Source: Candidatus Poribacteria bacterium
GTDB taxonomy: Bacteria > Poribacteria > WGA-4E > WGA-3G
Direction of reading: 5' to 3'
DNA: 64,000 nt
Assembly (NCBI GenBank): GCA_958295945.1
Contig: OY282386.1
Location: 2,181,864 to 2,245,863, forward strand
Below, one piece after another: positions 3,478 through 24,845 of the stretch. Position 1 is the stretch's first letter. Every line of letters starts with the position of its first letter. A model generated the notes under the pieces. It had not been told where the DNA came from. It did not search any database and saw only the letters and a list, made by a program, of their open reading frames with translations. Position numbers and translations under genes: made by a program.

Positions 3478-6400
3478 TTGCACTTAAAAAGCATCAAAAT
3501 CAGAGGATTCAAGAGCTTCGCCGAAGAAGTTGATTTATTACTCGAACCTGGCATCACAACCATTGTCGGTCCAAACGGATGTGGTAAGAGTAATGTTTCC
3601 GATGCAATACGATGGGTATTAGGTGAACAGAGTCCCAGAGCACTTCGCTGCACCAGCATGCGAGACCTACTATTTAACGGTGGATCAAACTTTAATCCCG
3701 CTCAAAAAGCAAGTGTTACACTCGCACTTACCAATATTTCTGAAAAACTATCAATTCAGTCACCTGATGTTGAAGTTTGCAGACAACTCACACGCGATGG
3801 AGAGAGTAGTTATCTTATCAACCAGACAGCATGTAGACTACGCGATATCAGCGAACTATTTATGGATACAGGTGTTGGAGTTGATGCATACTCTGTGATG
3901 GAACAGAGTAAAATTGATATGATACTTAACGTTCGTCCAGAAGAAAGACGCTTTCTATTTGATGAAGTTGCGGGTATTACAAAATCTAAGCATAACAAAA
4001 AGACTGCTCTACGTAAGTTAGAAGAGACAAAACAGAATTTAGTCCGGATAAACGATGTGATTCAGGAATTAGAACGTGAAACGGAATCTCTAAAATCACA
4101 GGCTGAACAAGCCGAACGCTATAAATCACTGAAAGAACAACAACAGAAATTAGAATTAGGTCTTGCATATCGGGAATACGAAAAACTTGCAGTTGAACAT
4201 CTTGAAGCACAAAATAAACTGAATGAATTAATAAACCAAGTCAGTGAAGCAAATCAAGATATACAGGAGGCTGAAGATAGAGTTGAAAGCGCATCTATTA
4301 AAAGAAGTGAACTGGATACTGCAATCGCTACTGCGCAAGAAAAGAAAAATGAAATAGAAGGTCAAATAGATAAGATTGAACGACAGCTTGTAGTATACAA
4401 AGAAAACCAAATAAATATAGCACAGCAGCGGCAAAGAGCATTGCAAACACTTGAATCCTTAAAAACACAACATATTCATCTACAAACGCAGAAAAAGGAG
4501 CGGTTACAAGAAAAGAAAAGAAAAGAGGCATCATTAAAAATTGAGGAAAGTCGAGTATCAGGACGTAAGCAACTTTTACAGGAATTGAGTACACGAATTG
4601 ACAATACCAATCAAACTATACAAGAGGCACAAAACGATCTGCAGGAGACTATCGCTGAACTTTCCCATCTTCAAAATAAAAGAACTTCCATTGAAGATAA
4701 GGTTACAAATACACAGAACAGTCTTGACCGGTTGAAAGAAAATTCTGACACGCTAAATGCTGAACTAAAAACTGCAAATGACAACCGTGAGGAAATACAA
4801 CATGCCGCTACAAAATTAGATGCTGACATAATACAGATTGAAACTGAAAAAGAGAAAGTTGAAGCAACGTTCAACGAAACTCAAGACGCTCTTCGTCAGA
4901 TTGATACAAGAATACGCGGGTTACAAGATACATTAGGTATAAATCAAACCCAACATAGAACCTTGACGCAAATGCAAGCCTCCTATAGAGGATACTATGC
5001 TGGTGTCAGTGCAATTATGCAAGCAAAAGAGCATTATCCTGAACAGTTTAGCGGGATTTGCGGTGTTGTCGCAGAACTCATACAGACACAAAACGATTAT
5101 GAGGTCGCTATTGAGGTATCACTCGGCAGTGCAATACAAAATGTTATCGCTGAGACTGCAGATGATGCTGATGCAGGAATAAGATTTCTAAAAAAGCATA
5201 ATGCAGGTAGAGTGACATTTATACCACTTGACATTATCCGACGGAGAAATTTCACTGACGATGCGCTTCTTGATGAACCCGGTGTGATCGGAGTAGCTGA
5301 AGATTTGGTGGATTTCGACTACATCTATCAACCCGCAGTACAACATCTATTAGGCAACACACTTGTCATAGATAATTTGGACAATGCTATCTCACTCAAA
5401 AGAAGGTGCAACCCAAACGCTCGATTGGTTACCTTAGAAGGTGAATTGATAAATACATCTGGAGCAATCACAGGGGGGCATACTGAACAAAGAAAAACAG
5501 GACTTCTCAGTAGAACCAACGAGCTTGATGTTTTACAGACAAAGATTGATGAATTAACAAAATTAGTAAATCAGACCGAACAAAAACGTAAATCTTATGC
5601 AGCAACTATTGCACAAGCACAACAATCAAGACAGTCATTTTCAACACAATGGCAGGATAAAAAAATTGAAAGAGCTGCTATAACCAAAGATATTGAACAA
5701 ATTGACCAAAACATTGTCCGAATTGAAAAACAAATAGCAGAAAATGAAGTTGAAAATAGACAACACGAGGAAACTGCTGATCTTTCAAGAGATGAACAAC
5801 TGCAACTTTATGAAAAAATAGAAGAACTCACGAAAAAAAGAACTCAAAATGAAAATAGAATAAAACGTGTTACTGAAAGTATAGATAGTGATAAACGTAA
5901 ACAGGATGAAGTGGCTAACGAAGTTCAGGAGAATGAAATCTTTTTGGCAGGACAACACGGTATTATCGATGGTATGAGTACTGAACTTGAAGGTTTTGAT
6001 GACAGAGAAATTCAAATTGAAGAGGAAATGAAAAAACAACAGGACATAATTAACAATGATGAACAAACTAAACAAGACATATCTGACCAAATTAGAGAAG
6101 CGGAACGAAAATTCCTCCAAATTCAAGGTGATTTTGCAGAAGCTGAAGCAGAATATGACGAACTAGTTGAAGAACGAGATGAACTAGTAATAGAAATTGA
6201 AAATCTACAGAAAGATATGCGTGGAACACGAAGATTGTATGAAAAGCAGAATCGAGCACGGACGCAACTTGAGATTAAAACTACGCAACTTGAAATGCGA
6301 ATCAAATCCAACTCCACACGGATCCTTGATAAATACCAAGTTTCTATTGAAGAACTGCCAAAGCCTATGCTCAATGTTTCAAATTCTGAAAATGAAACTA

Positions 6401-16948: not shown

Positions 16949-19222
16949 TTAAATATTTACCTCTACAATCGTCATTGTATCATTGCCGAAAATGTCTACA
17001 ACCTTGACAGCAATTTTTCTGGAACCCGGTTTGCATTCATGTGCTATGCTCTTTAATTCCAAAGACCGATCCTTCTTGGTGCGAAAACTTTGCCACTCAT
17101 TTTCAAAGACATACTCGCCTGTCCACTGTTCTTTCCACGCCTCTGTATCTGTGTCCTGCACACGGATAATCTCGCGTTTACTCTCAAATTCAAAATCAAC
17201 AGACCAATAATCTATCCAGTCAGTCCATTCTTTCGTCAAAATATCTTTCGTAACGACCCCCTCAGAATCTTTGCTAACCTTTACAACTTGTCCTTTTTCC
17301 ACGACAATTTTACTGCTTTTGTTCTTTAGTGTTTGTTCAGCACCTGAGATTGAATCTTGTGAATAGAAAACAGAGAAATCGGTCAATTCTACCGTTACTG
17401 TCGCTGGTCTATCATTTTTACCATTTGTAGTATGCGTTTTCACTTCAATGAACGCTACATCATGAAACACAACTTGATTCTGCTCCACTGCGCGTTTGTC
17501 AAATACTTCCGCGGGGATGTATTTCGGTGCAAGGTCAATGCCTTTATCTTTCGCTTCCTGTAACACATTGGGAAACAATCCCATCTCAAACTCAAAACCG
17601 AGAACGTCAACACGGGTAACCTGATGTCTTCTGCATTCAAGGATAATCTCTTCTATGAATAGACGCGTTACTGGTAAATTGACGGGCCCAATTGCGATTA
17701 ACCTGCCCGCTTTTTTACCTGGAAAACTGGCAAAACCTTCAGCCTTTTCGGCAGAATAAGCGCGTAGGATAAGGTCAATAAATGTCTTTTCCTTTTCTTC
17801 TAACTGTTGCTGTTGTTCTAACTCTCGTAGGTTTGGATTGACACCGACATAGTGCTGACGTTCATATTTGCCGAGGTTGAGGATTTCAAAGGCACGGTAG
17901 TCTTCACCCTCCTTTTTAAGTTCACGTTGTACTCCGATCAACCGTTTTCGTGTGGTGTGAATGGCAAACTTGCCGAGGTCTGTGACAATCCACTTGCGTC
18001 CAAGTTTTTCTGCAACGGCAGCAGTAGTCCCTGACCCACAGAAAAAGTCAGCGACAAGGTCACCTTCATTAGAAGATGCTTCTATGATGCGTTCAAGTAA
18101 GGCTTCAGGTTTTTGTGTCGGATAATCAAGAATCTCTGCAGTCGTACCTTGCAAATTTGGAATATCATCCCACAAATTGTTTGCTAACTTTCCTTCATTT
18201 TCACGCTCATTCCAATAAGCTTTTTCCTGAAGAGTATTTCCTTCTAAATAGAGTCTGTTTTCATTTTCCAACGTTTTTAACTTTTCATATTTCATCCGCC
18301 ATCCCTTTTTAGGACATTTCCATGTTTTTCCATTATTATCAATATAATCGTATGTCGTTTCGGGTCCAGGACTAGCAGTTTTTTGCAGTGGATAGAGTCT
18401 ATAATTTCCCCTGCCATCTTCATCATTCCTAGTATACATTGCTTTTGTAGTAGGGGATAAGGGTTTAAAAACTGAGTTTACTATGTATTTATCACTTTTA
18501 GAATACCAAAATATTGTATCTGTGTCCCTAGATAAGTTTCTTGAAATTGTCTTACCACTAGAACTTCTTTGCCAAATAATTTCATTATGAAAATTATCGC
18601 TTCCGAACACTTCATCTAAAACGAGCCTTAAAAAACCAGAAACCCGCCAATCACAATGGGCATAAATACTACCATCTATTGCCATCAAGTCTCGCATCAG
18701 AATCAGCCTCTCGTAAATCATAGCGATGAAAGAGTCCGCACCTTTCCCCCAAGTATCACGGTAGGCAATTTCTTCCAGGATATTCGGGTTTTTGGTAAGC
18801 GTTTCACCACCTATCTCAATATCCATAGAAAAATCCGCACCTACGTCAAAGGGTGGGTCAATATAGATAAGTTTGAGTCCATCTTGTGCCTCAATTTCCT
18901 CGCGCAGTGGTCCGTTCTTGAGTGATGATAGTATCAGTTTGTTATCACCCCAGATTAACTTGTTTGTCCAGCCTTTGCGTTGTCTGCCGCGTTCATCAAA
19001 TAAACCGAGTTGTTCACTGGATTCTGCACGTGGTTCGTCTACGTGTTCAATAGTCTGGAATGGTAGTACGATGTTGCAAACTTCGTTTGTCTTGCCATTC
19101 CAAACGAGTTCTACTTCGCGTTTGTCTTCAAAGAGCAGGAAGCGGTATTTTTCGGGTAGTGGTTTGTCTGCTTCTATGTAGCGGATGATTTCTTGCTGTT
19201 CTGATTCTGTGAGTCGTGGCAT
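16949..19222 (-). CDS. mod: Type III-like R-M modification methyltransferase (beta-class N6-adenine MTase)
   Basis: IYIDPPF motif IV precedes TRD and [19 protein letters not shown] motif I; C-terminal [14 protein letters not shown]. Confidence 0.9.
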
Positions 19223-19298: not shown

Positions 19299-19889
19299 TT
19301 ACCAAATGTTGGTGAGTCTGTAAGTTGACTCAATATGTATTTTCATGCCGTTGTCAGTAGCCTTAACAAGATTTTTGAAGAATGCCTCAGTGTCTTGAGC
19401 GGTTTTGCTCGTTAGGCGGATGTTTCCACTCGGTGATCGTGTCCAATCGTAAGGTGGCATATCAAAACCGTGCGCGAAACTATGACGAACACGTAAGATC
19501 TCATTCAATCTTGCACGCACCTGAAAACCGTTCATCCTACGTCGACTCCATATCCAATCGTTGATAGGATCATATCCTGTACAGTCTACAAGAAATTTCT
19601 GTGTATTTTCCCAGTTCGGCGTATTAAATCTCCCCGATGCTCTTTCTGCTGCTTGCTGGGCGATCACGTAAACAGGAGATGAATTAGGTATCACATCGTA
19701 GAAGTCCCGCACGAGGTTTTTTATGTATCCGTTCCATACTGCAACATAGGCCGTAAGTGCTGCGTGATAGTAAACCTGTATTTCATCATTGTGCAACATA
19801 GGATGCAACTGCTTATCTGTTGCAGTCCTGCGAAGTGTCTGTATGCGATTTACTGAGGTTGTGTAGGTTGATAATGCTGGTGATGGCAC
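19299..19889 (-). CDS. HEPN-domain protein (putative RNase)
   Basis: All-helical pattern with N-terminal Y.AVW..Y and LNEILRVRHSFAHG RxxxxH motif at 19470-19487; starts 9 bp after the ParA stop. Confidence 0.75.
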   Translation of the reverse strand: MPSPALSTYTTSVNRIQTLRRTATDKQLHPMLHNDEIQVYYHAALTAYVAVWNGYIKNLVRDFYDVIPNSSPVYVIAQQAAERASGRFNTPNWENTQKFLVDCTGYDPINDWIWSRRRMNGFQVRARLNEILRVRHSFAHGFDMPPYDWTRSPSGNIRLTSKTAQDTEAFFKNLVKATDNGMKIHIESTYRLTNIW

Positions 19890-19898
19890 AAGAAACCT

Positions 19899-21002
19899 TT
19901 AGAGACAATTTACAAATTCGGTGAGTGCTTTCCGATACTGATTTAATGGATCGGGATTGAGTTGAACCTGTTTACCGTGAACCATATTTGGTCCGGCTTG
20001 AAGGTCATTCAAAGGTATTCCTTTAAGTGTCATAATAACACAAGCACTGTGATAGTCAGGTATCTCTATAAACCTTTGACTTGGTGAATCTTTCGGTGTT
20101 GCGTAGATTTGACGGTGCTTTTTGTGGAGCTCATCCAACGTGACTTTAATGGACTCATTCACTGCCTTAAAAGCTTTGCTTGCTTTGCGGCCATAGAGGG
20201 TTACACGATTACTAACAAAGGTGTGGAGTTTCGGAACATCTAGTTCTTTCTCCTTCGCTCTATTAGCAAAGTTGATTCTTGCATAAGTATCTATTTTGGG
20301 ATCACTTATACCGTGGCCATAAAGCAGTGCGACGACATTCTCCAAAGCGCGACGCGAACTATCATCTGGTGTAAAAGGAATAATAAGATTTTCGGCTGCA
20401 GCGAGAGCCAATTGGGTGTAGATGGCGAAACTCGGATTACAGTCAATGATAAAAAGTGCATCTCGATTCCCGCTCCGCTTACGTAATGCAGATGTTAAAT
20501 CTTTGATCCAACTGAGGACTTGCTTCCAAGCATCCACTGGGATGGCAAGTTGTGAAGTTTGACGAATTGCTTCCGATAGAATTTCCAGTAGATAGTCACC
20601 GCAAACTAAACGCAAATTTCCTGGAAGTCTTGAGTTAAAGTCCTTAGGGTGACAAAAATACGGAGATACATTTTCAATGACACGGAAAGGAGAATTCAAC
20701 CGTGCTTCAATGTAACCCGCAACTGTAGCACGTGGCGTTTGTCCTATCAGTTTATTTATAACATCATAATTTTTGTGAATTACATTATAATTTTCGTCAT
20801 CGGATACTTCATCGTTATCATCAGAATTAGTTAAAATATCAGAATTCAGAAGTAACATCTCAGATACATTTGCTTGGGGGCAAAGGTCTATAACATAGAC
20901 ATCAGTGTCCGGATATGTGCGTGCATACTCGGTTGCTGCAACAAAACTTAAGAAACTCTTCCCGACCCCTCCTTTGTTGTTCCAGAATGCGTAAGCTGTC
21001 AT
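19899..21002 (-). CDS. ParA/Soj/MinD-family ATPase
   Basis: Deviant Walker A NNKGGVGKS, VIDLCPQAN, IIDCNPS Walker B. Confidence 0.9.
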   Translation of the reverse strand: MTAYAFWNNKGGVGKSFLSFVAATEYARTYPDTDVYVIDLCPQANVSEMLLLNSDILTNSDDNDEVSDDENYNVIHKNYDVINKLIGQTPRATVAGYIEARLNSPFRVIENVSPYFCHPKDFNSRLPGNLRLVCGDYLLEILSEAIRQTSQLAIPVDAWKQVLSWIKDLTSALRKRSGNRDALFIIDCNPSFAIYTQLALAAAENLIIPFTPDDSSRRALENVVALLYGHGISDPKIDTYARINFANRAKEKELDVPKLHTFVSNRVTLYGRKASKAFKAVNESIKVTLDELHKKHRQIYATPKDSPSQRFIEIPDYHSACVIMTLKGIPLNDLQAGPNMVHGKQVQLNPDPLNQYRKALTEFVNCL

Positions 21003-21137
21003 AATATAACCCCCTCAAAAAAATGAAAACACATAATAAATCTCGTTTAAAATTCTAACACAAATTGGTATGAATGTCAAAAGCTTGTTGCTTTTTGCTT
21101 TTGCAACGCTACATTATCATTGACAAGACTTACACAT

Positions 21138-21218
21138 TCCCCCTTGATAAGGGGGTTAGGGGTTAAAAAGTCGTTATTCAGTGATTTGCCCCCTAAATTC
21201 CCCTTATCGGAGGGACTT
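21138..21218. repeat. REP-like inverted doublet (CCCCCTTGATAAGGGGG family)
   Basis: tcccccttgataagggggttagggg 21138-21162 and ccccctaaattccccttatcggagggactt 21189-21218. Confidence 0.7.
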
Positions 21219-21248
21219 TAAGATAAGAGGAAATGCGTCCATCCTCCG

Positions 21249-21626
21249 TTATTTCTCGTTATTGTCTTCCTGTTCTGGTTCGTCTATTTCAAGGACTTGT
21301 ACGACAGGATCTCCAATATTTACAATGGCTCTGCTCAAAGATAATAGAGATTTACTAAATGAACCTTTGCCTCCTGATGACAAAGGTTTGTCTTTTGAGA
21401 ATAAAACAGTTATATGTTCTTGAACATCATCAACGTATAAATAAACAATAGGCCATTCAACCTTACCTATTTCTTTAGACGTATCAGGATCTCTTACAGG
21501 AATAATTTCTGAGATATAAAACTCCATACCGTAAGTTACACCATCTACCTCACCTATATTTATTACGAGTGCCCTTTCGTTCAAAATTCGTGCTACTTTA
21601 CCGCGAATTGGTTTAGTTTGTGTCAC
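21249..21626 (-). CDS. Small beta-rich hypothetical protein (FlgT C-terminal-like pattern); probable GTG start at 21626
   Basis: GKVARILNERALVINIGEVDGVTYGMEF..VRDPDTSKEIG; SD GGAGGG before GTG; overlaps the upstream gene stop. The ORF track starts at 21656. Confidence 0.7.
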   Translation of the reverse strand: MTQTKPIRGKVARILNERALVINIGEVDGVTYGMEFYISEIIPVRDPDTSKEIGKVEWPIVYLYVDDVQEHITVLFSKDKPLSSGGKGSFSKSLLSLSRAIVNIGDPVVQVLEIDEPEQEDNNEK

Positions 21627-22089
21627 TATCAATCCCTCCTTGTATTTTAGATTCAAGTTGTTGTTTTAACTCTTCTACATCTTCTGGAACAATGTCTCTC
21701 CAATCTTCCAATGCATCATCTGCTGCGTTTAGTTGCTCAGTAACAATTGCGTCAAGTTTGGCAACTAATACTTTATAGTCTTCTGGAGATTCCAAATTGT
21801 TTATTGATTGTATCTCAGTTGAAGCACGCGAAAGACTCTCGTAGAGTGAAACAAGACGTCTAAAAGCAGATCGTGCATGTGGTTTGATTATTTCTTTTGC
21901 TACTTCTTTAGCAGACTGTCGACCAAAAATAAAAGAACCTGTAAGTCCCGCGGTAAGGACAAAAACTTGCCAAATTGTACTTTCTACAGTGGTTAAAACT
22001 CTTGTAGTTGTTGTGTAAATGACTAAAACTGATACACCCAAAGAGATTAAGATTAGAAAACTTGCAAGAACCCAATTTAAGTTTTTCAT
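21613..22089 (-). CDS. Two-TM membrane protein with cytoplasmic helical domain, hypothetical
   Basis: Two hydrophobic helices (LNWVLASFLILISLGVSVLVIY; IWQVFVLTAGLTGSFIFG) then amphipathic helices. Confidence 0.75.
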   Translation of the reverse strand: MKNLNWVLASFLILISLGVSVLVIYTTTTRVLTTVESTIWQVFVLTAGLTGSFIFGRQSAKEVAKEIIKPHARSAFRRLVSLYESLSRASTEIQSINNLESPEDYKVLVAKLDAIVTEQLNAADDALEDWRDIVPEDVEELKQQLESKIQGGIDSDTN

Positions 22090-22157
22090 AATTTACTATT
22101 GTATCAAAAAATGTGGTGTTTGTCAAAAAATGAGGATGTTTATTGAGAGCTTTATCA

Positions 22158-24845
22158 CTACGGTTTGTATTCTGTAAAACCGTCAAGCAATTGCTGAAAA
22201 GTTGTCGGTGAATATGTTCTGAAACTCTCCTCGTCAACAAAAACAAAATCATAGTCAACATCGGTTGAGATTTCGTTAACATCCTCACACCATTGCGATA
22301 AACGTTCCATCTTGAGCGGTACATCTAAATCTTCTAATCCCTTAGTTTCGACTACAACTACACTGCCATCCATCAATTTGACGATAAAATCGGGATAGTA
22401 ATTAGAAATATCACCATCAGCATTGACATAATCAAGTTTAAACTGCACGCCATAATAGTTTTTTGTATAGGATACAACGTCCGGGCACGCCTCCAGAAAT
22501 TTAGCGAATTCCAATTCCAAATGACTATCACCTGTGATGATGTTGAATACAGATTTTGACGGTACTAAATGGTCTTGGTCTTTGACTATAAAGGGTCTTG
22601 TACTGCTGATTTTAGAAGTTTCGCTTAATTCTGCATTTCCTTTGTCCTGGACTGTAAGGTCATTGATTGCACGTTTGAATGTTTCAATAATCGTTTTTGT
22701 GGCGCGGAGTTCCGCGAGATTTTTTATGGTGATGGGATCGTCTAATGCTACCGTTTCACCAAAGAGATGGTGCTGGACAAATTCTTTTACCTTTGCATAC
22801 AACACATCATAACCGCCGACAAGTCGGAGTTCTTTCATTAGAGTTTGGGCAAAATAACCGAGAGCGTTTCGGTAGTCTTCTGTACCTGGACTTTCCAATA
22901 CTGTCGTATGTGCGACTTCGCTTGTCGTCATATATCGGAATTCAATTTCTCGTATCTCGGTTTCGCCAAACTGTTCATACTCAACAGGTTCAAAGTCAAG
23001 GCGTGTAACGTCCAAGTCTGCGAGATTGTTGTACTCACGGTAAACACGGCGCGTCAAAATGGGAATTTCAATATCAAGCGCGCCGATGTCTTTGTCCACA
23101 TTTTCCTTGTCAACCTCAATAACAAGAGGTGCTATGGGTTTTGTGCCTTCTCCCATTTCTTTGCGTTCTAATTCGACCCCTTCCTCTTGAATCTTTTCAA
23201 CAAAATCCATGAAGGCATCTGTACCGATGACACTAACAGACTCATCTACTGAATTATTATACATTCGCCTGAGGCCGCGTCCTAAGGTCTGTTCTGGTAG
23301 AATGTTGGCTTTTGCAGAATATGCACGGAGCCCAACAATGGTTGTAACGTTCTTGACATCCCACCCCTCTTTAAGCATTAAAACGGAAACAATTGCCTTA
23401 TATGGATTTTTGTCTATCGCTAAATCGATCGCATTCGCTTGCTTTCGAAGCTCTTCAAGTTCTTCTTTCTTTTTTCCAGATGTAGCCTCAGAGATTTCAC
23501 CATTATTCTTTGTATGAATCACCAGTACAGCATCTTTTAAGTCTTGGTAATGGTTTTCAAGATAAGTTGCTACCTCATCGCAGTTTTTCGTATCATCGGT
23601 CATCACAAACAGAATGGCTTTCTTACCCAACTTTTCGTGTCGTTCGAACGCTTTGCGCCACTCAACCACACCCAGGTGGAGATAGTCCGCATACTTCTCT
23701 GTAAACTTCACACTCTGTTTTTCCTCAAGTTTCTTCCTGCTTTCATCATCTGGAAGAATAGGGTGTTTCACGACGTTTTGTGAAATAGCCTCTACAAGCG
23801 GATAATCCGCGACTGTCTGGACAAAAATTGCACCGTTATTATGCTTTGGGGTTGCAGTTACATCAACTTGTAATGATAACTCGCTGTCTTTTTGCACAAG
23901 GCGATTGCGGATATCCTCAATTGACTTGAACCATGCCATCTTTGGATCATGGATATGATGTGCTTCATCGTTAAGTACCATCAATTCGTCAATATCTCGG
24001 ACGATGTCCCCGAGGTCCACTTTGGAATCTGTTGTTGCACCAGTCGGTTTTTTACCTAAGTAGTAATCCATACTGTTATCATCATCGGGGGATGGTGGTG
24101 TTTGGTCACTGGAATAGACGCGGTGAATATTCGTGAGAAAGATGTTACCTGTAGGCCGGACAGTTCGCACTTCATCTTGTACATGCAAGGTGAGTTGAAA
24201 ATCATTTCTCCAATTCTGACCTTCATAACCGTTGTCTGGTAACACTGGGTCATCAAAAAAGATGCTTAATCCTTTGAAATCATGATAAAGCCTGTCAAGG
24301 ACAATGATATTAGGTGCAATGACAAGAAAATTTCGAGAGAGTTCAGAATCTGTTTCATACAACTTGTGAAAGAAACTCCATGCGATAACAAGACTCATCA
24401 CCTTAGTTTTACCTGTGCCTGTTGCCATTTTTATGACGAATCGTTTCCAATTTTCGTCAAACATTCCTCTTGAAACAGCACCTGAACTGTCAAACTTTAT
24501 CAAATCAACTTCATCTTGGACCTTGACGACATCATAGAGGTAGACAATAGTTTCCAGTGCTTCGCGCTGTGCGAAATAGTACTGAAATTCTGTTGTTGTA
24601 CCATCAGATTGTTCTCTCAAGTGCGGTTCCTTGAACCACCAATTGAGTAGTGCTTTGCTTGTTTCAGATGCACCTCTATAGTTGTCATCACGCCAAGTCT
24701 TAACTGCATCACGTATCTTTTGTACGAGTGGTGGGAGTAACGTCCCCATGCCTGTCAAGGGCATCTGTGCGACATCAGGTGTCCAGCGCACAGAAGGGTC
24801 AATGATTTCGTGTGGTGATTCAGGAAATTCTGGGTGTAATGGCAT
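22158..24845 (-). CDS. res: Type III-like restriction subunit (SF2 DEAH helicase + C-terminal PD-(D/E)xK nuclease)
   Basis: FAQREALET, KMATGTGKT, LNDEAHH, MLKEGWDV, EQTLGRGLRRM, YYPDFIV..VVETKG. Confidence 0.9.
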   Translation of the reverse strand: MPLHPEFPESPHEIIDPSVRWTPDVAQMPLTGMGTLLPPLVQKIRDAVKTWRDDNYRGASETSKALLNWWFKEPHLREQSDGTTTEFQYYFAQREALETIVYLYDVVKVQDEVDLIKFDSSGAVSRGMFDENWKRFVIKMATGTGKTKVMSLVIAWSFFHKLYETDSELSRNFLVIAPNIIVLDRLYHDFKGLSIFFDDPVLPDNGYEGQNWRNDFQLTLHVQDEVRTVRPTGNIFLTNIHRVYSSDQTPPSPDDDNSMDYYLGKKPTGATTDSKVDLGDIVRDIDELMVLNDEAHHIHDPKMAWFKSIEDIRNRLVQKDSELSLQVDVTATPKHNNGAIFVQTVADYPLVEAISQNVVKHPILPDDESRKKLEEKQSVKFTEKYADYLHLGVVEWRKAFERHEKLGKKAILFVMTDDTKNCDEVATYLENHYQDLKDAVLVIHTKNNGEISEATSGKKKEELEELRKQANAIDLAIDKNPYKAIVSVLMLKEGWDVKNVTTIVGLRAYSAKANILPEQTLGRGLRRMYNNSVDESVSVIGTDAFMDFVEKIQEEGVELERKEMGEGTKPIAPLVIEVDKENVDKDIGALDIEIPILTRRVYREYNNLADLDVTRLDFEPVEYEQFGETEIREIEFRYMTTSEVAHTTVLESPGTEDYRNALGYFAQTLMKELRLVGGYDVLYAKVKEFVQHHLFGETVALDDPITIKNLAELRATKTIIETFKRAINDLTVQDKGNAELSETSKISSTRPFIVKDQDHLVPSKSVFNIITGDSHLELEFAKFLEACPDVVSYTKNYYGVQFKLDYVNADGDISNYYPDFIVKLMDGSVVVVETKGLEDLDVPLKMERLSQWCEDVNEISTDVDYDFVFVDEESFRTYSPTTFQQLLDGFTEYKP

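What the first reader, a model, noticed from the sequence alone, without database searches (positions are those of the whole stretch)
21249..22089. Coupled 2TM protein + FlgT_C-like beta-barrel gene pair downstream of res
Two AT-rich genes overlap by 14 bp with an embedded SD (GGAGGG), indicating translational coupling. 2TM proteins are typical membrane effectors in CBASS, Thoeris, Pycsar and retron systems (established); the partner is a small soluble beta-rich domain. I recognise no named system with this pair, so it is a candidate new sensor/pore module.
Basis: inference. Interest (0 to 1): 0.62.

Follow-up and report, generated by a model that had tools for sequence, protein, structure and literature searches.

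The report
Membrane protein plus beta-barrel gene pair
Two overlapping genes, one for a small membrane-anchored helical protein and one for a soluble beta-barrel protein, form a strictly paired, horizontally mobile module that here sits as cargo inside a restriction-modification locus; it is most likely an undescribed defence or addiction module, but its function is untested.

Summary
On the minus strand, a 158-aa membrane protein (22089..21613) and a 125-aa protein (GTG at 21626..21249) overlap by 14 bp, with GGAGGG 7 nt before the GTG.

The small protein folds as a FlgT_C-like beta-barrel. The membrane protein has an N-terminal helical hairpin and a conserved cytoplasmic helical domain. It matches no Pfam, PADLOC or PDB family.

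The pairing is near-obligate:
- The small gene follows the membrane gene in 71 of 79 genome loci from more than 10 phyla.
- The membrane gene precedes the small gene in 73 of 74 evaluable metagenome loci.
- Start/stop overlap recurs in 70 loci.

In Poribacteria the pair occupies a variable slot between res and mod of a type III-like R-M locus. In sibling genomes that slot holds ParA+HEPN, SLATT/DUF4231+CopG, or an Rce1-like protein. Elsewhere the pair follows large type ISP/IIG-like methyltransferase enzymes in five loci, but most other neighbours are housekeeping genes.

The best reading (about 0.5) is an autonomous conflict module: a membrane effector controlled by a cytoplasmic barrel partner. 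Pore formation and sensing are inference only. It is a new variant of a known kind and of moderate interest.

The parts
22098..22126 (-). Sigma-70-like promoter (TTGACA-17-TACAAT, extended TG, 11 of 12 matches) in the 68-bp gap between res and gene A.
   Evidence: This is a consensus match only; no transcript data were available.
21613..22089 (-). Gene A: a 158-aa membrane-anchored helical protein. It has an N-terminal hairpin (TM1 about residues 3-29, TM2 about 34-56) and a cytoplasmic helical domain. Near-invariant motifs are PHARSAFRR (residues 70-78) and DDALEDWRDIVPED (residues 124-137).
   Evidence: No Pfam, PADLOC, NCBIfam, PHROG or PDB match. The family has 870 clusters at 50% identity. 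dN/dS is 0.12-0.23.
21634..21639 (-). Shine-Dalgarno GGAGGG, inside the 3' end of gene A and 7 nt upstream of the GTG start of gene B.
   Evidence: Equivalent GGAG-like motifs occur in related loci.
21249..21626 (-). Gene B: a 125-aa soluble cytoplasmic FlgT_C-like beta-barrel with an invariant DPD(T) loop, a GDPVVQ strand and an acidic disordered tail. It is a short variant that lacks about 30 residues found in most relatives (about 150 aa).
   Evidence: dN/dS is 0.38-0.69.
21156..21232 (.). Two short inverted repeats (21198-21208 with 21222-21232, and 21156-21167 with 21185-21196) just after the stop of gene B. They look REP-like and may act as a transcript end or stabiliser separating the pair from the ParA-HEPN cassette.
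   Evidence: No T-run terminator was called.
22158..24845 (-). Context: res (895 aa), a ResIII helicase with weak C-terminal endonuclease-like matches; type III-like restriction subunit.
19299..21080 (-). Context: a second cargo cassette with its own promoter-like site (21080..21052). It holds a ParA-like ATPase (21002..19899) and a RiboL-PSP HEPN protein (19889..19299).
   Evidence: In relatives it is present or absent independently of the pair.
16949..19222 (-). Context: mod (757 aa), a type III N6/N4 DNA methyltransferase.

Best explanation
The two genes form an autonomous, horizontally mobile two-gene conflict module, either abortive-infection/defence or addiction-like. Here it is carried as cargo in a variable slot between res and mod of a type III-like R-M locus.

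Shown or computed:
- The pair has its own promoter-like site.
- The genes are translationally coupled, so the two proteins should be made together.
- Protein A is anchored in the inner membrane by an N-terminal helical hairpin. TM2 carries invariant E36 and Q41 and a small-residue face (G48, S52, G56).
- Protein A projects a roughly 100-residue conserved helical domain into the cytoplasm.
- Protein B is a soluble cytoplasmic FlgT_C-like beta-barrel.

Inferred:
- B binds the conserved membrane-proximal cytoplasmic face of A and holds it inactive, or alternatively senses a trigger and activates it.
- When infection or loss of the locus removes or alters B, A oligomerises through TM2 and compromises the membrane, which stops growth.
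- Inside the R-M locus the pair acts as a second-line effector. It takes the same position and presumed role as the ParA-HEPN and SLATT modules found in that slot in sibling genomes.
For: 1. Strict pairing. Gene B follows gene A in 71 of 79 genome loci. Gene A precedes gene B in 73 of 74 evaluable metagenome loci that were found with gene B alone. Overlap is conserved in 70 loci.

2. Patchy, HGT-like spread. The membrane gene is present in 14 of 41 close relatives, with up to 3 copies per genome. It shows 40-62% identity across more than 10 phyla.

3. Positional equivalence. In Poribacteria the res-to-mod slot holds the pair alone (L034, L038, L040), ParA+HEPN alone (G005, G020), both together (the window, L017), DUF4231/SLATT with or without CopG antitoxin (G037, G028, G029, G026), or an Rce1-like protein.

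4. A second, unrelated R-M type lies directly upstream on the same strand in five non-Poribacteria loci. L051, L058 and L077 carry N6_Mtase/Eco57I/Type_ISP_C enzymes by Pfam, and L066 falls in the same BLAST cluster. L094 has a 1514-aa Eco57I/N6_Mtase enzyme preceded by a PIN gene.

5. Other neighbours include BrnT/BrnA, DUF4325+PIN and AAA_15/21; LeoA/BC, PsyrA, AbiEii, type I R-M and PD-T4-7; integrases, GmrSD, HipA and YoeB; and TniB plus a Mu transposase.

6. The pair stays intact where the flanking res and mod have decayed to relics (L013, L033/L106, L068, L101).

7. Solo membrane-gene copies that lack gene B show relaxed selection (dN/dS 0.18-0.96). Some have lost otherwise near-invariant residues, for example H71Q, P135T and G56. 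This is what would be expected if an unpartnered effector is neutralised.
Against: - There is no experimental or homology evidence for toxicity, pore formation or phage sensing.
- The membrane protein resembles no known effector.
- Outside Poribacteria most immediate neighbours are ordinary metabolic or transport genes, such as mutL-miaA, hydantoinase, MFS transporters and a lasso-peptide cluster. By rough count only about 5-10% of neighbours are defence- or mobility-related.
- Many Poribacteria loci are orthologous, so their R-M association is not many independent events. The four type ISP-like cases may reflect one co-transferred unit.
- The pair was not found on plasmids or in viral contigs.
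- TM2 is only moderately hydrophobic.
Confidence: 0.5

Rival explanations
1. The pair is a pure addiction (toxin-antitoxin-like) module. The membrane protein is a toxin and the barrel protein is its labile protein antitoxin. The pair stabilises itself and the DNA around it, such as the R-M island, without any anti-phage role.
For: - The layout is compact, two-gene and translationally coupled.
- The pair persists intact while the flanking res and mod decay.
- It spreads by horizontal transfer and inserts at unrelated housekeeping sites.
- Solo membrane genes show relaxed selection and loss of near-invariant residues.
- A Gordonia phage carries a lone homologue of the barrel protein, as phages sometimes carry antitoxin mimics.
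Against: - Neither protein has a DNA-binding or other recognised TA domain.
- No plasmid copies were found.
- The toxin-first gene order is the less common arrangement.
- Intact solo membrane genes that keep PHARSAF (L025, L027, L028) survive without a partner.
- TA and abortive-infection roles are not mutually exclusive, so this rival overlaps the best explanation.
Confidence: 0.2
2. The pair has a non-conflict, membrane-associated housekeeping or stress function, for example an envelope or membrane-homeostasis factor. In this view it hitch-hikes in variable regions, and its presence in the R-M slot is incidental.
For: - Most neighbours outside Poribacteria are housekeeping genes.
- The membrane protein is under strong purifying selection (dN/dS 0.12-0.23), with highly conserved motifs across phyla.
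- FlgT_C-like barrels are otherwise structural ring components.
- A solo membrane gene sits at a syntenic site downstream of lpd in at least 10 Poribacteria genomes.
Against: - Distribution is sporadic even within one genus (14 of 41 genomes), with up to three copies in some.
- Identity of 50-62% between phyla implies recent transfer.
- The pair recurs directly downstream of, or inside, two unrelated R-M types.
- The same slot holds SLATT, CopG, HEPN and Rce1-like cargo in sibling genomes.
- No conserved metabolic or envelope partner gene appears in any neighbourhood.
Confidence: 0.2
3. The two proteins are accessory subunits of the restriction-modification enzyme, for example tethering Res/Mod to the membrane near DNA entry sites or regulating restriction.
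For: The pair lies between res and mod in many Poribacteria. It lies directly after type ISP/IIG-like enzymes in five other loci.
Against: - Most non-Poribacteria loci have no R-M gene nearby.
- The same R-M family exists without the pair, carrying other cargo or none (G005, G020, G016).
- The pair outlives decayed res and mod.
- It has its own promoter-like site.
Confidence: 0.05

Closest known systems
Back-up effectors embedded in R-M loci (PrrC in the EcoprrI type Ic locus, RloC; the 'embedded effector' concept restated in bioRxiv 10.64898/2026.10.19.760177)
   Same: The pair sits between the genes of an R-M system and has its own promoter-like site. In sibling genomes the slot is occupied by alternative predicted effectors (ParA+HEPN, SLATT), which is the pattern described for second-line effectors.
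   Different: PrrC and RloC are single-protein anticodon nucleases, with a HEPN-type nuclease domain in PrrC. This is a two-protein module with a membrane component and no nuclease domain. It also occurs mostly outside R-M loci in other phyla.
SLATT / DUF4231 2TM effectors and the 2TM effectors of CBASS, Pycsar, Thoeris and retron Ec48
   Same: It is a small protein with two predicted membrane helices, found in conflict-system contexts. A SLATT/DUF4231 gene occupies the very same res-mod slot in G037, G028, G029 and G026.
   Different: There is no sequence or profile similarity: Pfam is negative and hhalign against the local SLATT proteins gives probability 0.7%. The TM hairpin is N-terminal and is followed by a conserved helical domain of about 100 aa. 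No cyclase, TIR or reverse transcriptase partner is present; the constant partner is a FlgT_C-like barrel.
Lambda RexA/RexB (cytoplasmic sensor plus membrane channel abortive-infection pair)
   Same: The functional design is the one proposed here: two co-expressed genes, one a membrane protein and one cytoplasmic, with the membrane protein as the suggested executioner.
   Different: There is no homology (PADLOC negative). RexB has four TM helices. The comparison rests on my own knowledge and is analogy only.
FlgT C-terminal domain (Pfam PF16538; Vibrio H-ring protein, PDB 3w1e and 8z5n)
   Same: The beta-barrel fold matches (Foldseek E about 4e-5), and 72 of 93 relatives hit the Pfam model.
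   Different: FlgT is a periplasmic, three-domain flagellar ring protein. Gene B is single-domain, has no signal peptide or hydrophobic N-terminus, and has no flagellar genes nearby.
ParA + HEPN dyad (Anantharaman et al. 2013, PMC3710099; ParA-effector systems in bioRxiv 10.64898/2026.10.19.760177)
   Same: It is a neighbouring cassette in the same slot, and it often co-occurs with the pair in Poribacteria.
   Different: It is an independent module. Each occurs without the other (L034 and L038 have the pair only; G005 and G020 have ParA+HEPN only). No window-type ParA lies next to the pair outside Poribacteria. The ParA preprint does not describe this pair.

Membership tests
Pfam FlgT_C (PF16538) / FlgT flagellar protein | Sequence match to the PF16538 profile | tested here: inconclusive
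   The window's own protein gives no hit at E<=0.1. Of 93 aligned relatives, 72 hit at E<=0.05, with a best E of 3.9e-7.
Pfam FlgT_C (PF16538) / FlgT flagellar protein | Beta-barrel fold of the FlgT C-terminal domain | tested here: met
   The AF2 model has pLDDT 84.6. The top Foldseek PDB hits are 8z5n and 3w1e (FlgT) at E 3-4e-5; all other hits have E>=0.009.
Pfam FlgT_C (PF16538) / FlgT flagellar protein | Periplasmic multi-domain protein encoded with flagellar genes | tested here: not met
   The protein is single-domain, 125 aa, with no hydrophobic N-terminus (maximum Kyte-Doolittle 1.27). Its neighbours are res, ParA, HEPN and mod.
SLATT / DUF4231 2TM effectors | Profile match to the SLATT_1-6 or DUF4231 models | tested here: not met
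   No such hit for the window protein or any of 72 relatives. hhalign against SLATT proteins from the same slot in sibling genomes gives probability 0.7%.
CBASS / Pycsar / Thoeris / retron 2TM effector modules | An adjacent signal-generating enzyme (CD-NTase, cyclase, TIR/ThsB, reverse transcriptase) | tested here: not met
   No such gene lies in the window operon. None recurs as a neighbour in 79 genome loci or 80 metagenome loci.
Known or candidate defence systems in PADLOC-DB v2.0.0 | HMM match to any system component | tested here: not met
   Gene A gives only PDC-M14B at E 0.017, which is not significant. Gene B gives no hit.
Type II toxin-antitoxin modules | Two small co-transcribed, coupled genes | tested here: met
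   The overlap is 14 bp here and is conserved in 70 loci.
Type II toxin-antitoxin modules | A recognised toxin fold, and an antitoxin with a DNA-binding domain | tested here: not met
   No TA-family or HTH/RHH/AbrB domain was found in either protein.
Type II toxin-antitoxin modules | Toxicity of one protein that is neutralised by the other | not testable with these tools
   This needs expression experiments.
R-M-embedded back-up effector | Encoded inside an R-M operon, in a slot with interchangeable effector cargo | tested here: met
   The window has res-[pair]-[ParA-HEPN]-mod. Sibling genomes carry SLATT+CopG, ParA+HEPN, an Rce1-like protein or the pair alone in the same slot.
R-M-embedded back-up effector | Effector activated when restriction fails or is inhibited | not testable with these tools
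   This needs phage and anti-restriction experiments.
Type III R-M system (context genes) | Res with a ResIII helicase domain, and Mod with an N6_N4 methyltransferase domain | tested here: met
   PF04851 at E 8e-17 and PADLOC REase_III at 7e-21 for res. PF01555 at 2e-44 and PADLOC MTase_III at 2e-113 for mod.

The most novel reading that the evidence does not exclude
The pair is a previously unrecognised, widespread two-gene abortive-infection system of about 870 sequence clusters in more than 10 phyla. In it, a cytoplasmic FlgT_C-like beta-barrel, a fold that elsewhere builds rings, gates or senses for a new family of 2TM-helical membrane executioners. R-M loci of sponge symbionts carry it, interchangeably with SLATT and ParA-HEPN modules, as a second line of defence.
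Probability: 0.35. Interest if true: 0.65.

Novelty: new variant of a known kind. Interest (0 to 1): 0.52.

Why it matters
If the pair is a defence module, it adds a new, compact two-protein system, with neither component related to known effectors or sensors. It also gives a first cytoplasmic, non-flagellar role for the FlgT_C-type barrel.

The Poribacteria res-to-mod slot is also a natural 'effector exchange' site. The same R-M backbone carries at least four alternative cargo types there, so the slot can be mined for further unknown effectors.

The strict pairing, small size and presence in cultured Acidovorax and Oleiagrimonas strains make the hypothesis cheap to test.

Tried and rejected
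- Family libraries for the pair. Pfam, NCBIfam, PADLOC and PHROGs gave nothing for gene A. Gene B gave only FlgT_C in relatives and phrog_27728, of unknown function.
- Solved structures. PDB sequence-profile searches gave nothing significant. Foldseek of the gene A model gave no hit below E 0.37.
- Homology of gene A to SLATT was rejected (hhalign probability 0.7%).
- Phage or plasmid carriage. Gene A gave no hits in IMG/VR, INPHARED or PLSDB. Gene B gave one weak phage hit.
- Domain fusions that could reveal function. None were found among the best 150 of 870 representative clusters. The longer proteins are N-terminal gene-call extensions or low-complexity tails.
- A conserved third gene. None was found by clustering 1,491 neighbour ORFs.
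- The idea that gene B generally evolves faster than gene A was rejected. Mean pairwise identity is 50% for B against 46% for A across 66 pairs. Only the window's short subclade of B shows raised dN/dS.
- Strong AT-richness as a sign of foreign origin was rejected; the pair is only about 1.3 sd below the window mean.
- Literature. No paper links FlgT_C to defence, and the ParA-immunity preprint does not describe this pair.
Full report
**Anatomy**

The relevant minus-strand gene order in the window is:
- res, 24845..22158
- gene A, 22089..21613
- gene B, 21626..21249
- a 246-bp spacer containing short inverted repeats
- a ParA-like ATPase, 21002..19899
- a RiboL-PSP HEPN protein, 19889..19299
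- mod, 19222..16949

The stop of gene A (TAA, 21615..21613) lies inside gene B if B starts at the GTG at 21626.

The two best sigma-70-like sites in the 9-kb region (11 of 12 matches each, both with an extended TG) lie just upstream of gene A (22126..22098) and just upstream of ParA (21080..21052). The pair and the ParA-HEPN dyad therefore look like two separate cassettes, each with its own promoter. These are consensus matches only.

**The proteins**

Gene A:
- It has one strongly hydrophobic helix (Kyte-Doolittle 2.64). A second, glycine/serine/threonine-rich segment at residues 38-56 averages about 1.4 by my hand sum over the sequence.
- AlphaFold2 with a 72-sequence alignment (pLDDT 84) gives a helical hairpin (2-29, 34-98) in which the second helix continues far into the cytoplasm. 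Two more helices follow (102-131, 135-150).
- Across 72 relatives from many phyla, the invariant or near-invariant positions are R30, E36, Q41, G48, S52 and G56 in the hairpin, and PHARxAxRR (residues 70-78) plus DALEDWxDxxP (residues 125-135) in the cytoplasmic part.
- Nothing in Pfam, NCBIfam, PADLOC, PHROGs or the PDB resembles it by sequence, profile or fold.
- A profile search of 1.84 billion representative proteins finds 870 clusters at E<=1e-3. Among the best 150 listed, nearly all are 90-214 aa, and none of the longest ones inspected carries an added recognisable domain.

Gene B:
- It has no hydrophobic N-terminus.
- It folds (pLDDT 84.6) as an all-beta barrel with a disordered acidic tail.
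- Its only Foldseek PDB hits with E<=0.001 are Vibrio FlgT and the FlgT-containing LPHT ring (E 3-4e-5). Weaker hits are other small barrels: the F1-ATPase N-terminal crown, MreC and TsaP.
- Of 93 relatives, 72 hit Pfam FlgT_C, although this copy does not.
- The window's copy belongs to a short subclade of 116-127 aa that lacks about 30 residues present in the common form of about 150 aa.

**Is the pair real and constant?**

Yes.
- A scan of one genome per species with the gene A profile returned 79 loci in Poribacteria, Latescibacterota, Binatia, Chloroflexota (Caldilineaceae, Dehalococcoidia), Desulfobacterota, Alpha-, Beta- and Gammaproteobacteria, Acidobacteriota, Planctomycetota, Balneolales, Deferribacterales and Campylobacterota. 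In 71 of them gene B follows directly.
- A metagenome scan seeded only with gene B returned 80 loci. In 73 of the 74 that have enough upstream sequence, gene A ends at the start of gene B.
- The B start overlaps or abuts the A stop in all 70 loci where both could be placed: -4 in 26, -8 in 14 and -17 in 10.
- Both genes are under purifying selection in the window's subclade. dN/dS is 0.12-0.23 for A and 0.38-0.69 for B. Very different dS values for the two adjacent genes in the same genome pair indicate recombination between them.
- Pairwise identities of A and B across loci correlate only moderately (r=0.39).

**Distribution**

Only 14 of 41 genomes of the same genus or order carry gene A, with up to three copies in one genome. 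Identities of 50-62% link Poribacteria to Binatia, Latescibacterota and Chloroflexota, many of them sponge MAGs. This is the pattern of a horizontally moving accessory module, not of a core gene.

**Context in Poribacteria**

Most Poribacteria-type loci have the pair between res and mod of the same R-M family, or next to relics of those genes. The internal arrangement varies:

| Arrangement | Loci |
|---|---|
| res-A-B-mod | L034, L038, L040, L057 |
| res-ParA-HEPN-A-B-mod | L017, L036, L050 |
| res-A-B-ParA-HEPN-mod | the window |
| res-ParA-(239-aa ORF)-A-B-mod | L019 |
| res-(198-aa ORF)-A-B-mod | L014 |
| tandem duplication of the pair | L037 |

Searching the relatives for res and mod, then fetching the gaps between them, shows that the same slot also holds other cargo:
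- ParA+HEPN alone, in G005 and G020.
- ParA+HEPN plus a 252-aa ORF, in G022.
- A 155-aa DUF4231/SLATT protein in G037, G028, G029 and G026. It is accompanied by a CopG-type antitoxin in G037 (Pfam-confirmed) and apparently in G028, and by an Rce1-like protein in G026.
- Nothing, with the order mod-res, in G016.

The res-to-mod interval is therefore a cargo slot filled by interchangeable conflict-system modules, and the A-B pair is one of them.

In several genomes res and mod are reduced to fragments while A and B remain intact (L013, L033/L106, L068, L101).

One Caldilineaceae locus (L083) has the pair next to relics of the Poribacteria-type mod (71% identity). This suggests the pair and part of the R-M locus were transferred together between phyla.

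**Context elsewhere**

Clustering 1,491 neighbour ORFs shows no conserved third gene.
- Most immediate neighbours in non-Poribacteria genomes are unrelated housekeeping genes.
- In five loci the gene directly upstream on the same strand is a large methyltransferase-containing restriction enzyme. L051, L058 and L077 carry N6_Mtase/Eco57I/Type_ISP_C enzymes of 1114-1264 aa by Pfam, and L066 is in the same BLAST cluster. L094 has a 1514-aa Eco57I/N6_Mtase enzyme preceded by a PIN gene.
- PADLOC finds sparse further hits among 133 neighbours: LeoA/BC, PsyrA, AbiEii, type I S and M subunits, and PD-T4-7.
- An independent set of 140 metagenome neighbours is topped by phage integrases (3), N6_N4 methyltransferases (2) and GmrSD (2), with single hits to a C5 methylase, HipA and YoeB.
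- One locus abuts TniB and Mu-transposase genes.
- In the cultured Oleiagrimonas sp. C23AA the pair sits beside a lasso-peptide cluster with no defence genes.

My rough estimate is that 5-10% of immediate neighbours outside Poribacteria are defence- or mobility-related. That looks higher than I would expect for random genes, but I ran no control set, and it is far from the level of a classical defence-island gene.

**Solo copies**

A diverged clade of gene A (176-208 aa, with an N-terminal extension) sits alone downstream of lpd in at least 10 Poribacteria genomes. In some it is followed by ParA-HEPN or lies next to a res relic. These copies are open, but they show relaxed selection (dN/dS 0.18-0.96). 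Several have lost otherwise near-invariant residues: PHARSAF to PQARSAL, VPED to VTED, and G56 lost. This fits a neutralised relic of an effector that lost its partner. It also means an unpartnered gene A is tolerated, so it does not prove toxicity.

**Interpretation**

The evidence supports a self-contained, mobile, two-protein module of the conflict-system class. The evidence is strict pairing, coupling, patchy HGT-like spread, occupancy of a slot otherwise used by SLATT, CopG, ParA-HEPN and Rce1-like cargo, recurrence next to a second R-M type, and persistence after R-M decay.

The mechanism is inference. The membrane protein's invariant polar residues and small-residue face in TM2 suit oligomerisation and ion leakage. 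The conserved basic patch under the membrane and the acidic DPDT loop and tail of the barrel are plausible partners. Barrels of this fold class often form rings. Whether B is an inhibitor (antitoxin-like) or a sensor and activator cannot be decided here.

The main rivals are a pure addiction module and a non-conflict membrane function. A role as an R-M accessory subunit is unlikely, because the pair is usually found without any R-M genes nearby.

**Comparison with known systems**

The closest concept is the back-up effector embedded in an R-M locus, such as PrrC and RloC. The concept is restated for ParA and PAACC in bioRxiv 10.64898/2026.10.19.760177. The closest design is a cytoplasmic-partner-plus-membrane-executioner pair such as RexAB, which I cite from my own knowledge as analogy only.

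The pair is not a member of SLATT, of the CBASS, Pycsar, Thoeris or retron effector sets, of any PADLOC v2 family, or of recognised TA families. Each was tested and not met. Gene B shares the FlgT_C fold but is not a flagellar FlgT. I found no paper describing the pair.

**Verdict**

This is a new variant of a known kind, a candidate R-M-embedded or free-standing two-gene effector module. Interest is moderate, and the hypothesis is easy to test.

Noticed in passing
L116 (G037), L117 (G028), L118 (G029), L120 (G026): res-to-mod gaps of sibling Poribacteria genomes: The slot that holds the pair in the window instead holds a 155-aa DUF4231/SLATT 2TM protein. It is accompanied by a CopG-type antitoxin in G037 (Pfam-confirmed) and by an Rce1-like CAAX-protease-family protein in G026. 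The res-to-mod interval of this R-M family is a cargo-exchange site worth mining for other unknown ORFs, such as the 198-aa ORF in L014, the 239-aa ORF in L019, the 252-aa ORF in L119 and the 143-aa ORF in L118, none of which hit Pfam.
   Followed up: partly
L202 (Gordonia phage DatBoi MN908691.1, gp11, record 5846-6202): A 118-aa phage protein shares the barrel core of gene B (36% identity over residues 3-74, E 5e-4; relatives of gene B also hit phrog_27728). It has no gene A next to it. It lies just downstream of phage PRPP-transferase and nicotinate ribosyltransferase genes and a tRNA, and before the terminase. It could be a phage-borne mimic of the barrel partner.
   Followed up: partly
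L025, L027-L032, L064, L065, L073, L081, L082: A solo, N-terminally extended paralogue of the membrane gene sits at a syntenic site downstream of dihydrolipoyl dehydrogenase (lpd). It has no barrel partner. In L027, L032 and L082 it is followed directly by ParA-HEPN, and in L027 by an Mrr_cat restriction endonuclease gene as well. Selection is relaxed and some invariant residues are lost.
   Followed up: partly
L037:8837-10784 and L050:10001-15889: Local duplications occur inside the slot. L037 has two A-B pairs separated by a 31-residue relic of the mod N-terminus. L050 has A-B-mod followed by a second B-mod copy. This points to recombination between repeated mod 5' ends.
   Followed up: no
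L083:10957-11483 (Caldilineaceae MAG): Relics of the Poribacteria-type mod (71% identity over residues 1-68 and 56% over residues 650-747) sit directly after the pair in a different phylum. This suggests the pair moved between sponge symbionts together with part of the R-M locus.
   Followed up: no
window 21140-21235: REP-like short inverted repeats rich in CCCC/GGGG (GATAAGGGG / CCCCTTATC and similar) fill the spacer between the pair and the ParA-HEPN cassette.
   Followed up: partly
window 21249-22089 compared with L038 and L035: Synonymous divergence differs about five-fold between the two adjacent genes for the same genome pair (window versus L038: dS 0.49 for A, 0.10 for B). This indicates a recombination breakpoint at or near the gene junction.
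   Followed up: partly
L013:7450-7997: A BrnT/BrnA toxin-antitoxin pair is inserted immediately upstream of the A-B pair in a decayed copy of the R-M locus. DUF4325+PIN and AAA_15/AAA_21 genes lie downstream (also seen in L017-L019).
   Followed up: no
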